In this document: one piece after another, positions 37,949 through 40,093 of the stretch
How the letters are laid out: each line of letters starts with the position of its first letter
Position numbering within the stretch: the first letter of the stretch is position 1
Assembly: GCA_000165345.1 (NCBI GenBank)
Contig: CM000430.1
Coordinates: forward strand, 768,001 to 832,000
Direction: 5' to 3'
Length of the DNA stretch: 64,000 nt
Notes under the pieces: generated by a model
Databases searched by the model: none
What the model was told of the DNA's origin: nothing
The model's input: the letters and a program-made list of their open reading frames with translations, nothing else
Position numbers and translations under genes: made by a program

Positions 37949-40093
37949 CTATTTTATTGGCAGTCGTTTTAAATATCTGCTACCGAAAAGGTATTCACAA
38001 ATTTCAAGAGAATTGTTTGCATTAACGGTTCCTTCTGTCATAACTATTAGAAGGTTAGGAATAGGTTTTTTCTTTTAAGAAATATTGTAAAACTTACCAG
38101 GAAGACCTCTAATTCGGGTAGCTCCTTTTAAAATACAATCTTTAATAGAATATATTGAGATATTTGGGAAGACTGAAAGCAAGACCCCAGCTATCCCAGT
38201 TATAATTGGGGCAGAGAATGAGCTACCATCCATACATCTATATTCTGTGTTGAGTGGATTTTAGTTAGAATTTGGGTTAATTTTGTATTTTTTAGATTTG
38301 CATGCATCTTACCTCCCTGTAGATATGTAGAGCAAATATTAACTCCAGGAGCTCCAATATGGACGGTCTTTCTTCCATAAGTTGCTCTTTCCATTAGTTC
38401 TCCATTACTTTAGGTGATGAATAAAGAAATGAATAGATAAAGTTTTTAATTAGAATGAAAATTAAAATTTATTACTTACCTTGTAATCGAAGTCACAGAA
38501 ATAATGTTTTCAGACCTGTGAATTAGTTAGTGAAATTCAATATAAAAGTTCAGAATGTTCTATTTATATGATTTCTTTTTAACTTACTTGAAAGATGAAG
38601 GGAAAGTTGGAACAATATCATTATTTCTATCGCTTTCATAATTACCAGAAGCTACAATTACCAACATTCCTTGATCTTCACTTCTTTTAATTGCAAGTCT
38701 TAATAATTCAATGCTTTTACTAAAGACAGTATTATTGATTTTTGATGTTCAGTATTTACACTAAAGGTACTTACCTTCTACTTCCATAGCTATGATTTGA
38801 TACTCTTACTCCTTTATCTAATGCATAGTCAATAGCTTCGACAAATCCTGATAGGAATCCTCTAATTTTTGAGTCCAAAACCTTTAATACCATGATTTGG
38901 CAAAACCAACAAATTCCTGAAATACCAACTTCCTTATTTGGGATTGCAGAAATGATGCCAGAAATATGAGTTCCATGTCCATTATTATCTACTGGTATTT
39001 TATTATTATCCACAAAATTCTAAAAGGGTTTGTTTAAATTATAAAAAGTTGTATATTAATAAAAACTTAACTTACCCATCCATAACAATCATCAACATAA
39101 CCATTCATATCATCATCAATTCCATCATTACAGTCAAACTCTCCAAAATTCCTCCATATTTTTCCTCTCAAATCAGGATGCTCAAAATCAATCCCAGAGT
39201 CAATAACTGCAATTACAACATTTCCCATTCCTTGATCCTTAAGTTCTGAAACTCTTTTCCACATTTTTGCTGACTTTATCCCAAATTTTGAATCATTATG
39301 AAACCATTGTCTTTCATAAATAGTTGAATAGTTTTCAGTAGTTATTGTTGGCCTGATGGAGTTATTTATTTTTGGTATCTCAAATGTACTTCTGTAATTG
39401 TTTTCTTCGAATCCAATAAACTCGTCCAAATACACTCCCTAATAAAAGTTACAAAAATCTAGACGTAGAATTATTATAACTTACCTGAATCAAATCTTGA
39501 AACAAGCTGACTTGATCCTTTATTACATTCAGGAATTTTGTCATCTGATCATTATCTTTAGTTTGTATAATCTCCATGCTTAAATTCTTTAAATACCTTG
39601 TTTTTGTATTGTTAAACTAATAGTTTTGAAGAATTAATTTGATAAAATGTTTCATTATCCTTCCCATACAAATTAAAATTGAACAAATATATGGGAATTA
39701 TGAAAGCTTAACTCACCTTGAGTATATTAAAAGCTCTTTCAATAATGTTTTTAAACCTCAATCTTAATCTTAAAAATAACTCACTTGAGCCACTATTACT
39801 ATCTTTATATACAAATATTATTCTATTCGAGTCTTGATATTGTGATTCATTAACTTTAATCTAAATACATGTGATATAAAGCAATGTTTTAATGAGAGTT
39901 ATTTTGAAATTTTAACAGGGATTTGTTACTAGTTACTTACCTTTTTTATCAAATCCGTTAACCTAGTACCAAGATTAGAATCCTGCCTTTTAGAAACTAA
40001 TTCAGCTCCATTTTCTATTCTAATCAAGTTCTGAGACCTAACTGTTATTATAATAGTTACCAGGATTTGAATTATCAGTAGTTTTGCCCTCAT
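37949..40093 (-). CDS. Subtilisin-like (S8 family) serine protease, about 492 aa, encoded in 11 exons with 10 short introns
   Basis: Catalytic motifs assemble only after splicing: Asp in GNVVIAVIDSGIDFEHPDL, His in NNGHGTHISGIISA, Asn in SNHSYGS, and Ser in GSSFSAPIITGIAGV.

Exons in plus coordinates, read on the minus strand: 40093..40061 (tentative), 39997..39941, 39860..39717, 39616..39485, 39438..39076, 39019..38775, 38719..38588, 38515..38480, 38407..38313, 38244..38098, 38043..37949. The stop is a TAG at 37951..37949.

Introns run 46-100 nt. All except the uncertain first intron (GTAACT..ATTAG, 63 nt) start with GTAAGT, GTGAGT or GTAAGA and end in YAG. Phases are consistent across every junction, and exon lengths sum to 1479 nt, which is 493 codons. 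The predicted N-terminus MRAKLLIIQIL... is hydrophobic and signal-like. The ORF-track pieces at 38200..38394, 38771..39013 and 39067..39435 are exon fragments of this gene. Confidence 0.75.

What the first reader, a model, noticed from the sequence alone, without database searches (positions are those of the whole stretch)
37949..40093. An S8 subtilisin-like protease gene packed with 10 introns in 2.1 kb, in an otherwise almost intron-free genome
The ORF track shows only three disconnected fragments, each carrying one catalytic motif (D, H, S/N).

Reading the minus strand, I could chain 11 exons with canonical GTRAGT donors, T-rich tracts plus YAG acceptors, and introns of 46-100 nt. Every junction preserves phase, and the exons sum to exactly 493 codons.

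The spliced product carries the full Asp/His/Asn/Ser subtilase signature plus an I9-like propeptide and a signal-like N-terminus.

Intron density of about 5 per kb is extreme for a Cryptosporidium-like genome, where most genes have none. That makes this locus a natural test case for splice-site and branch-point definition in this organism.

Micro-exons of 36 and 57 nt are included.

The first intron (GTAACT...ATTAG, 63 nt, plus 39998-40060) is the weakest part of the model. Frame-incompatible alternatives were tested and rejected.
Basis: partly seen in the sequence, partly recalled or inferred. Interest (0 to 1): 0.75.

Follow-up and report, generated by a model that had tools for sequence, protein, structure and literature searches.

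The report
Known intron-rich Cryptosporidium subtilisin gene
This is the already annotated Cryptosporidium parvum chromosome-2 subtilisin-like protease gene, which really is split by an unusually large number of short introns (nine, not the ten proposed), so the finding is correct in substance but not new.

Summary
The window is 100% identical to C. parvum IOWA-ATCC chromosome 2 (CP044421.1). The locus 37949-40093 (minus strand) is gene CPATCC_000546, "Subtilase family". They are GT-AG bounded and needed to open the frame. They are conserved in position and phase in C. canis, C. bovis (8 of the 9) and C. muris, and they diverge faster than the exons. Spliced this way, the product is 513 aa and is letter-for-letter the public protein QOY42863.1. 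At the stated coordinates it ends in TTA, not AG. The real ...ATTAG interval is 64 nt and breaks the frame. The 63 nt are open, are conserved like exon sequence, and encode the hydrophobic core of the signal peptide. The protein is a complete S8 pro-enzyme (Peptidase_S8 E=1e-48; D223/H279/N372/S442). The I9-like propeptide is supported by predicted fold only, not by sequence. Ten exons is the published maximum for C. parvum genes, so the "extreme intron density" is real but documented. Two intron positions are shared with a Neospora homologue, which points to retention of old introns. Verdict: already known, low interest.

The parts
39941..40093 (-). Exon 1 (153 nt, aa 1-51): start codon, signal peptide MRAKLLIIQILVTIIITVRS, start of the pro-region.
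   Evidence: Open frame throughout. It matches the public model. It is 74% identical to C. canis with no gaps.
39998..40060 (-). This is NOT an intron. It is coding sequence for VTIIITVRSQNLIRIENGAEL.
   Evidence: It ends in TTA, not AG. The true ATTAG interval is 64 nt and breaks the frame. It is 75% identical to C. canis with 0 gaps, like exon sequence. The peptide is conserved in orthologues.
39861..39940 (-). Intron 1 (80 nt, GTAAGT...TTTAG, phase 0)
   Evidence: The position is conserved in C. canis, C. bovis and C. muris. It is 52% identical to C. canis with 23 gap columns.
39717..39860 (-). Exon 2 (144 nt, aa 52-99): prodomain strand 1 and helix 1
39617..39716 (-). Intron 2 (100 nt, GTGAGT...ATTAG, phase 0)
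   Evidence: It is conserved in C. canis and C. muris. It is absent from the C. bovis model, which has 15 extra residues there.
39485..39616 (-). Exon 3 (132 nt, aa 100-143): prodomain strands 2-3 and helix 2
39439..39484 (-). Intron 3 (46 nt, GTAAGT...ATTAG, phase 0), the shortest intron
39076..39438 (-). Exon 4 (363 nt, aa 144-264): end of prodomain, disordered linker (aa 156-181), start of the catalytic domain with Asp223 (VIDSG) and the DGIDDDMNGYVDD loop
39020..39075 (-). Intron 4 (56 nt, GTAAGT...TTTAG, phase 0, after CYGW)
   Evidence: The same position and phase occur in the Neospora caninum homologue.
38775..39019 (-). Exon 5 (245 nt): His279 (HGTH)
   Evidence: It is 245 nt in all four Cryptosporidium species.
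38720..38774 (-). Intron 5 (55 nt, GTAAGT...TTTAG, phase 2, in GSR|S)
   Evidence: The same position and phase occur in the Neospora caninum homologue.
38588..38719 (-). Exon 6 (132 nt): oxyanion-hole Asn372 (ASGN)
38516..38587 (-). Intron 6 (72 nt, GTAAGT...CACAG, phase 2; contains ACTAAC 15 nt from the 3' end)
38480..38515 (-). Exon 7, a 36-nt micro-exon (SENIISVTSIT, a core beta-strand)
   Evidence: It is 36 nt in C. parvum, C. canis, C. bovis and C. muris. It is 89% identical to C. canis.
38408..38479 (-). Intron 7 (72 nt, GTAAGT...TAAAG, phase 2, AAG acceptor)
38313..38407 (-). Exon 8 (95 nt)
   Evidence: It is 95 nt in all four species.
38245..38312 (-). Intron 8 (68 nt, GTAAGA...CACAG, phase 1)
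38098..38244 (-). Exon 9 (147 nt): catalytic Ser442 (GSSFSAP)
38044..38097 (-). Intron 9 (54 nt, GTAAGT...AATAG, phase 1)
   Evidence: An intron at the same position and phase, with canonical ends, exists in C. canis (56 nt), C. bovis (249 nt) and C. muris (52 nt).
37949..38043 (-). Exon 10 (95 nt incl. stop, VMTEGTVNANNSLEICEYLFGSRYLKRLPIK): C-terminal helix of the subtilisin fold
   Evidence: The peptide is conserved in C. bovis, C. muris and Neospora. The helix at aa 491-502 is modelled with pLDDT about 95.
38032..38043 (-). 12 nt (TTATGACAGAAG) between two in-frame acceptors. They are included in the 513-aa public model and skipped in the 509-aa public models.
   Evidence: VMTE present or absent. 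The downstream AG is out of frame in C. canis and C. muris (sequences).

Best explanation
The locus is the C. parvum chromosome-2 gene for a secreted subtilisin-like (S8A) serine protease zymogen (CPATCC_000546). It is probably the gene called cgd2_3660 in the older nomenclature.

It is transcribed from the minus strand. It needs ordinary spliceosomal removal of nine short GT-AG introns (46-100 nt) to join ten exons into a 1542-nt reading frame of 513 codons plus stop.

The product has four parts:
- an N-terminal signal peptide (aa 1-20);
- a prodomain with the beta-alpha-beta-beta-alpha-beta fold of subtilisin propeptides (about aa 64-152);
- a disordered linker (aa 156-181), where autocatalytic cleavage would be expected;
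- a catalytic domain with Asp223, His279, Asn372 and Ser442.

Shown here: the sequence identity, the exon/intron structure, the family membership and the predicted fold. Inferred: secretion, autoprocessing and protease activity.

The introns are old. All nine positions predate the radiation of the genus, and at least two predate the split from coccidia. The gene is therefore a case of intron retention in a genome that lost most introns, not of intron gain.
For: - Identity: the window matches CP044421.1:167983-190127 at 22,145 of 22,145 bases, and the gene span is identical.
- Public protein: the 9-intron product is exactly QOY42863.1 / WRK31158.1 / UniProt A0A7S7LIZ4.
- Family: Peptidase_S8 E=1.3e-48, 166 bits against a cutoff of 21.8.
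- Catalytic residues: D223, H279, N372 and S442 are invariant among 46 homologues.
- Solved relatives by sequence: deseasin MCP-01 1.5e-46 and PfSUB1/PvSUB1 about 1e-41.
- Structure: AF2 model pLDDT 84, pTM 0.83, with the prodomain topology.
- Fold matches: the best Foldseek hits are the full-length PfSUB1 and PvSUB1 zymogens over 470-516 columns.
- Intron conservation: positions and phases are conserved in C. canis (9 of 9), C. muris (8 annotated, and the ninth found here) and C. bovis (8 of 9).
- Divergence pattern: exons are 74-89% identical to C. canis, and introns are 48-58% identical with indels.
- Composition: exon GC 32.0% and intron GC 23.4%, equal to the genome-wide 32% and 22% (PMC4637869).
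- Ancient introns: two positions are shared with the Neospora homologue in both column and phase. The chance of two or more coincidences is about 5e-4.
Against: - No transcript reads could be examined here. RNA-seq support rests on a general statement in the annotation paper, not on this gene specifically.
- Two public annotations (509 aa) use an acceptor 12 nt downstream for the last intron, so the exact 3' end of intron 9 is disputed among annotators.
- Inhibitor_I9 is not detected by sequence.
- The equation with cgd2_3660 is inferred from gene order and numbering only.
- No biochemical evidence of activity, secretion or processing exists for this protein in the literature searched.
Confidence: 0.93

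Rival explanations
1. One reading: ten introns, with an extra 63-nt intron (40060..39998) in the signal-peptide region, giving a 492-aa protein.
For: The 63 nt begin with GT, and removing them keeps the frame, so the arithmetic works.
Against: - The interval ends in TTA, not AG.
- The real ATTAG boundary gives 64 nt and immediate stops.
- The frame is open through it.
- The segment is 75% identical to C. canis with no gaps, like exon sequence and unlike the real introns at 48-58%.
- The encoded peptide ...SQNLIRIENG... is conserved as far as C. bovis and C. ryanae.
- Removing it cuts the hydrophobic core of the signal peptide from 14 to 8 residues.
- The 492-aa sequence is in no public collection.
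Confidence: 0.01
2. The main mRNA uses the acceptor 12 nt further downstream for the last intron (exon 10 starting at 38031). This gives the 509-aa protein without VMTE, as in GenBank WKS76664.1, KAL5370161.1 and C. hominis KAL3129623.1. Alternatively, both acceptors are used (tandem alternative 3' splice sites).
For: Three public annotations chose it. Both acceptors are AG and both are in frame in C. parvum (sequence).
Against: - V-M at the start of the exon is conserved in C. canis, C. bovis and C. muris.
- In C. canis and C. muris the corresponding downstream AG would be out of frame (sequences).
- The upstream TAG follows a pyrimidine-rich tract with a CTAAC motif 15 nt from the 3' end of the intron.
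- This gene is not among the three alternatively spliced genes reported for the annotation.
Confidence: 0.2
3. The fragments are a decaying pseudogene, and the apparent introns are a chance chaining of GT...AG pairs.
For: There is no long ORF. The ORF track shows only short fragments.
Against: - The spliced frame is complete and aligns end to end with intron-less bacterial subtilases, with no disruption at the junctions.
- The catalytic residues are intact.
- Exon lengths 245/132/36/95/147 are identical across species that are only 54% identical in protein.
- The orthologue pair probably corresponding to this gene has dN/dS 0.03.
- The clustering of GTAAGT sites has P about 1e-6.
Confidence: 0.01
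4. The gene was recently acquired from bacteria and then colonised by new introns. This would explain why the best non-Cryptosporidium sequence matches are bacterial.
For: After the Cryptosporidium orthologues, the top hits are bacterial S8 peptidases at 36-44% identity. They rank above the Neospora homologue at 38%.
Against: - Two intron positions and phases are shared with the Neospora homologue (chance about 5e-4).
- All nine introns are already present in C. muris, the most divergent species examined (54% protein identity).
- The best structural matches are the Plasmodium SUB1 zymogens.
- The bit scores of the bacterial and apicomplexan hits are close (223-251 bits).
Confidence: 0.03

Closest known systems
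C. parvum IOWA-ATCC gene CPATCC_000546, protein QOY42863.1 / WRK31158.1 / UniProt A0A7S7LIZ4 ('Subtilase family')
   Same: The DNA span is identical (2145 nt), the ten exons and nine introns are identical, and the 513-aa product is identical.
   Different: Nothing. It is the same gene.
Plasmodium SUB1 (PfSUB1 8pol/4lvn, PvSUB1 4tr2), the egress subtilisin of malaria parasites
   Same: Both are S8A proteases. The prodomain-plus-catalytic-domain zymogen architecture is the same. They are the best structural matches (TM 0.70-0.76 over 470-516 columns). Sequence E is about 1e-41.
   Different: Sequence identity is only 23-29%. SUB1 is longer (about 630-690 aa chains). Orthology was not tested. The protein studied in the literature as CpSUB1 appears to be a different Cryptosporidium gene (own knowledge, not checked here). 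No role in egress or invasion is shown for this one.
Bacterial S8A peptidases of the deseasin MCP-01 / fervidolysin-prodomain type
   Same: These are the highest sequence similarity outside the genus. They reach 36-44% identity across the catalytic domain, including the DGIDDDxNGYxDD loop.
   Different: They have no introns. Many carry the Pfam PF22148 prodomain and extra C-terminal domains, which are not detected in this protein.
Other intron-containing C. parvum genes
   Same: The introns are the same ordinary kind: GT-AG ends, short, AT-rich. The published genome mean is 99 nt and 22% GC. Here the mean is 67 nt and GC is 23%.
   Different: Intron-containing genes average 2.6 exons, and about 89% of genes have no intron. 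This gene has 10 exons, which is the stated maximum, and holds about 1.3% of the genome's 688 introns.

Membership tests
Peptidase S8 (subtilase), subfamily S8A | Match to the Pfam PF00082 profile above the gathering score | tested here: met
   166 bits against a cutoff of 21.8, E=1.3e-48, aa 216-476, covering profile positions 3-274 of 288
Peptidase S8 (subtilase), subfamily S8A | Catalytic triad in the order Asp-His-Ser, with an oxyanion-hole Asn, in the canonical motifs | tested here: met
   D223 (VIDSG), H279 (HGTH), N372 (SGN) and S442 (GSSFSAP) are invariant in a 46-sequence alignment
Peptidase S8 (subtilase), subfamily S8A | Subtilisin alpha/beta fold | tested here: met
   AF2 model with pLDDT above 90 over most of aa 200-500. 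Foldseek TM (target-normalised) is 0.85-0.89 to deseasin, PvSUB1, thermitase and subtilisins. This is a prediction, not an experimental structure.
Peptidase S8 (subtilase), subfamily S8A | Serine endopeptidase activity | not testable with these tools
   This needs recombinant protein and a substrate assay
Inhibitor_I9 / subtilisin propeptide | Sequence match to Pfam PF05922 | tested here: not met
   No hit even at E<=10 for the full protein or for the isolated N-terminal region
Inhibitor_I9 / subtilisin propeptide | Beta-alpha-beta-beta-alpha-beta domain N-terminal to the catalytic domain, packed as in pro-subtilisins | tested here: met
   Elements E64-69, H77-97, E104-108, E113-117, H121-133 and E142-147, with block pLDDT 62-90 over aa 61-150. 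The best fold matches are full-length PfSUB1, PvSUB1 and pro-subtilisin E, with alignments that extend over the prodomain. This is a prediction only.
Inhibitor_I9 / subtilisin propeptide | Autocatalytic cleavage, and inhibition or chaperoning of the mature enzyme | not testable with these tools
   Inferred from family behaviour. A disordered linker at aa 156-181 is compatible with it.
Spliceosomal GT-AG introns (the nine retained in the model) | GT at the 5' end and AG at the 3' end, with removal restoring one continuous frame | tested here: met
Spliceosomal GT-AG introns (the nine retained in the model) | Comparative signature: position and phase conserved, sequence diverging faster than the exons, with length changes that are not multiples of three | tested here: met
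Spliceosomal GT-AG introns (the nine retained in the model) | Spliced junctions seen in transcripts | not testable with these tools
   No reads were available. [quoted passage not shown] An exact junction scan of metagenome contigs found nothing, which is uninformative.
   It ends in TA. The AG one base further on gives 64 nt and breaks the frame. It is also conserved like exon sequence.

The most novel reading that the evidence does not exclude
This gene kept all nine introns through the whole radiation of the genus while the genome purged about 90% of genes of theirs. That could mean the introns are retained for a reason. One possibility is splicing-dependent or stage-restricted control of a secreted protease. 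Another is very low or sexual-stage-only expression, which would shield the gene from reverse-transcript-mediated intron loss. If so, it would be the best natural multi-intron reporter for how Cryptosporidium defines splice sites, including a 36-nt micro-exon and a tandem acceptor pair 12 nt apart.
Probability: 0.12. Interest if true: 0.4.

Novelty: already known. Interest (0 to 1): 0.15.

Why it matters
It matters little as a discovery. The gene and its nine-intron structure are in the public C. parvum annotation, and the published exon-number range (2-10) already includes it.

It has modest practical value in three ways:
- It holds about 1.3% of the genome's introns in 2.1 kb, which makes it a compact natural substrate for studying splicing signals in Cryptosporidium.
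- Comparison across species shows that several public orthologue models are wrong at the 3' end or fused to the neighbouring gene.
- The shared intron positions with Neospora show that the introns are relics and not gains.

Tried and rejected
1. It has no AG, the frame breaks at the true AG, and it is conserved like exon sequence.
2. All GT...AG pairs inside exon 1 were listed. The frame-preserving ones from the GTAACT donor (30, 78 and 120 nt) delete conserved residues and are used by no public model.
3. Pfam Inhibitor_I9 found nothing by sequence, on either the full protein or the isolated N-terminus at E<=10. The claim survives only at the level of predicted fold.
4. An Rfam scan of 37600-40500 for RNAs hosted in the introns (for example snoRNAs) found no match at E<=1.
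5. An exact exon4|exon5 junction scan of the metagenome and metatranscriptome contigs gave 0 hits, which is uninformative.
6. No high-identity transcript-derived fragments from Logan assemblies appear among the homologues.
7. A full-text search for 'cgd2_3660' found 0 papers. Searches for Cryptosporidium subtilases found nothing specific to this gene.
8. Recent bacterial transfer with intron gain was considered and rejected because intron positions are shared with Neospora.
9. NCBIfam gave only sub-threshold matches to bacterial subtilase families such as mycosin, so there is no finer assignment.
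Full report
**What is at the coordinates**

On the minus strand between 40093 and 37949 there is no long ORF. 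There are only short fragments, and three of them carry VIDSG (Asp), HGTH (His) and GSSFSAP (Ser). That gives 1479 nt, or 493 codons, with no internal stop, so the arithmetic is right. For introns 2-10 the boundaries are canonical. Donors are GTAAGT seven times, GTGAGT once and GTAAGA once. Acceptors are TAG, CAG or AAG. Lengths run from 46 to 100 nt and AT content from 71 to 82%. Splicing is needed, because the unspliced span has 57-61 stops in each frame.

**The first intron is wrong**

The stated interval 40060..39998 ends in ...GAATTA, not AG. That interval is 64 nt, and removing it runs straight into stop codons. The frame from the ATG is open through the whole segment (ORF 39929..40093). 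Between C. parvum and C. canis these 63 nt are 75% identical with no gap. That is like the flanking exon sequence (70-79%) and unlike the nine real introns (48-58% with indels). The encoded peptide (...VRSQNLIRIENG...) is recognisable in C. bovis and C. ryanae. Keeping it gives a proper signal peptide, MRAK-LLIIQILVTIIITV-RS|QN. Removing it would cut the hydrophobic core to eight residues (inference from the standard tripartite signal-peptide structure). The gene therefore has ten exons and nine introns, and the 57-nt 'micro-exon' is an artefact. The 36-nt micro-exon (38515-38480) is real.

**Identity**

The nine-intron product (513 aa) is found letter for letter in public collections as QOY42863.1 / WRK31158.1 / UniProt A0A7S7LIZ4, 'Subtilase family [Cryptosporidium parvum]', locus CPATCC_000546. 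The reverse complement of the window matches C. parvum IOWA-ATCC chromosome 2 (CP044421.1:167983-190127) at 22,145 of 22,145 bases. The annotated gene span there is the same 2145 nt. The older name is probably cgd2_3660. This is inferred from the neighbouring HAD-like gene being CHM_2g3650 in C. hominis, and from a cgd2_3660 entry with 98.8% identity to C. hominis and dN/dS of 0.03 in a supplement. I did not verify it.

**Is the intron richness unusual, and is it known?**

In this window, 81% of the sequence lies in uninterrupted ORFs of 150 aa or more, including ORFs of 6579 and 3948 codons. The only gap longer than 2 kb is this gene. Of the six complete neighbouring genes in the public annotation, five have spans equal to three times their codon number, so they have no introns. 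The BOP1-like gene has a single intron of about 66 nt. Seven of the 18 minus-strand GTAAGT sites in the window fall in this gene, where 0.6 would be expected (P about 1e-6).

Genome-wide figures come from Isaza et al. 2015. [quoted passage not shown] This gene sits at the stated maximum and holds about 1.3% of the genome's introns. That is 4.2 per kb against about 0.08 per kb on average. Its exon GC (32.0%) and intron GC (23.4%) equal the genome values. [quoted passage not shown] I could not inspect reads myself.

**Comparative test of each intron**

I fetched the orthologous loci of C. canis, C. bovis and C. muris and derived their structures from the annotated proteins.
- The exon lengths 245/132/36/95/147 across the catalytic domain are identical in all four species, although C. 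muris is only 54% identical in protein.
- On a protein alignment, all nine C. parvum positions and phases recur in C. canis.
- Eight recur in the C. muris model.
- Eight recur in C. bovis. It lacks the intron at residue 99 and has 15 extra residues there instead.

The ninth intron is not annotated in C. muris and is placed differently in C. bovis. However, both genomes contain a canonical phase-1 intron at the same position: GTAAGT...ATTAAG of 52 nt in C. muris and GTAAGT...TATTAG of 249 nt in C. bovis. In each it is followed by a conserved last exon, VMGSRIINAYKAYSYC... and VMTEGSVNAYNSLEIC... respectively. That exon aligns with GTIDAHKSLYI of the Neospora homologue. It forms the confident C-terminal helix of the model.

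**The last acceptor**

Public models of 513 aa and 509 aa differ by VMTE. They use two in-frame acceptors 12 nt apart, with exon starts at 38043 and 38031. V-M is conserved at the start of the exon. The downstream AG falls out of frame in C. canis and C. muris (sequences). Only junction reads can say whether both are used.

**Age of the introns**

The Neospora caninum homologue (P0043, 7 exons) shares two intron positions with Cryptosporidium in both alignment column and phase. One is phase 0 after CYGW|NF (CHGW|DF in Neospora). The other is phase 2 in GSR|S. With about 900 possible sites in the aligned block, the chance of two or more coincidences is about 5e-4. At least these two introns predate the genus, and all nine predate its radiation. 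This argues against recent bacterial acquisition followed by intron gain, even though bacterial S8 peptidases score slightly above other apicomplexan homologues. A paralogous subtilase in C. felis (828 aa in a 2564-nt span) has room for only about 77 nt of intron. The intron load is therefore a property of this gene, not of the family.

**The protein**

- Pfam Peptidase_S8 matches at E=1.3e-48, covering aa 216-476.
- D223, H279, N372 and S442 are invariant in an alignment of 46 homologues.
- The closest solved sequences are deseasin MCP-01 (1.5e-46) and Plasmodium SUB1 (about 1e-41).
- An AlphaFold2 model built on that alignment has mean pLDDT 84 and pTM 0.83.
- The model shows an N-terminal helix (the signal peptide), a beta-alpha-beta-beta-alpha-beta domain at residues 64-152, a disordered stretch at 156-181, and the subtilisin fold.
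- The best Foldseek matches in the PDB are the full-length PfSUB1 and PvSUB1 zymogens, aligned over 470-516 columns, and pro-subtilisin E. So the prodomain is matched too.
- Inhibitor_I9 is not detectable by sequence even at E<=10. 'I9-like' therefore holds only as a predicted fold.

The mechanism is inferred from what is established for the family. The protein would be secreted, fold with the help of the prodomain, cleave itself in the linker, and then lose the inhibitory prodomain. None of this has been tested for this protein, and I found no paper about it.

**Other checks**

No Rfam family matches in or around the introns. An exact exon-junction search in the metagenome contigs found nothing, as expected.

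**Verdict**

The interpretation as an intron-rich S8 protease gene in a Cryptosporidium genome is right. The tenth intron is an error. The whole structure is already public. Interest is low. The residual value lies in the annotation corrections for orthologues and in the gene's use as a compact multi-intron test case.

Noticed in passing
L001 about 5078-5220 (C. muris); L002 about 5156-5500 (C. bovis): Public orthologue models for C. muris (P0020) and C. bovis (P0018), and by alignment also C. ryanae (P0019), C. meleagridis (P0008) and C. tyzzeri (P0009), lack the conserved last exon. Most of them read through the last intron to an early stop. C. muris and C. bovis have canonical phase-1 introns of 52 nt and 249 nt, followed by VMGSRIINAYKAYSYC... 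and VMTEGSVNAYNSLEIC...
   Followed up: yes
window 36799-40093 (minus strand); proteins P0005 (806 aa, C. hominis) and P0017 (790 aa, C. ubiquitum): Two public models fuse the subtilase to the downstream HAD-like gene (window ORF 36799..37770, 323 aa). After ...RGLP the alignment continues with that neighbour's sequence. This looks like the false fusion of adjacent same-strand genes that the annotation paper warns about.
   Followed up: partly
L003 3001-5113 (C. canis) compared with window 37949-40093: The C. canis introns at the same nine positions are far more GC-rich (33-59%) than those of C. parvum (18-29%), C. bovis (14-20%) or C. muris (9-27%).
   Followed up: no
L005 (Neospora caninum homologue), alignment columns 534 and 578 against Cryptosporidium columns 543 and 587: Besides the two exactly shared introns, two further Neospora introns each lie exactly 9 codons upstream of a Cryptosporidium intron of the same phase (2 and 1). 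The alignment there looks sound (SGN/AGN and APG are aligned). It could be coincidence, a parallel shift or something else, and it remains unexplained.
   Followed up: no
L002 exon 3 (C. bovis) and P0019 (C. ryanae), aligned to C. parvum residue 99: C. bovis and C. ryanae have no annotated intron where C. parvum, C. canis and C. muris have intron 2. They carry about 15 extra residues there (VVDYEKLKHKDNIQE and PMDYDKFRYKNNFEG), which are similar between the two species. This could be an intron loss, or an intron turned into coding sequence.
   Followed up: partly
window 43047-45245 (minus strand): The BOP1/WD40 gene two genes upstream codes for 710 aa in a 2199-nt span, which implies one intron of about 66 nt. 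A GTAAGT donor lies at 45094. It is the only other intron among the six complete neighbouring genes in the 22-kb public-annotation table (L004).
   Followed up: partly
window 1013-20752 (minus strand) and 45954-57800 (plus strand): There are two giant uninterrupted ORFs, of 6579 and 3948 codons. The second has no Pfam family on record in the public annotation table.
   Followed up: no
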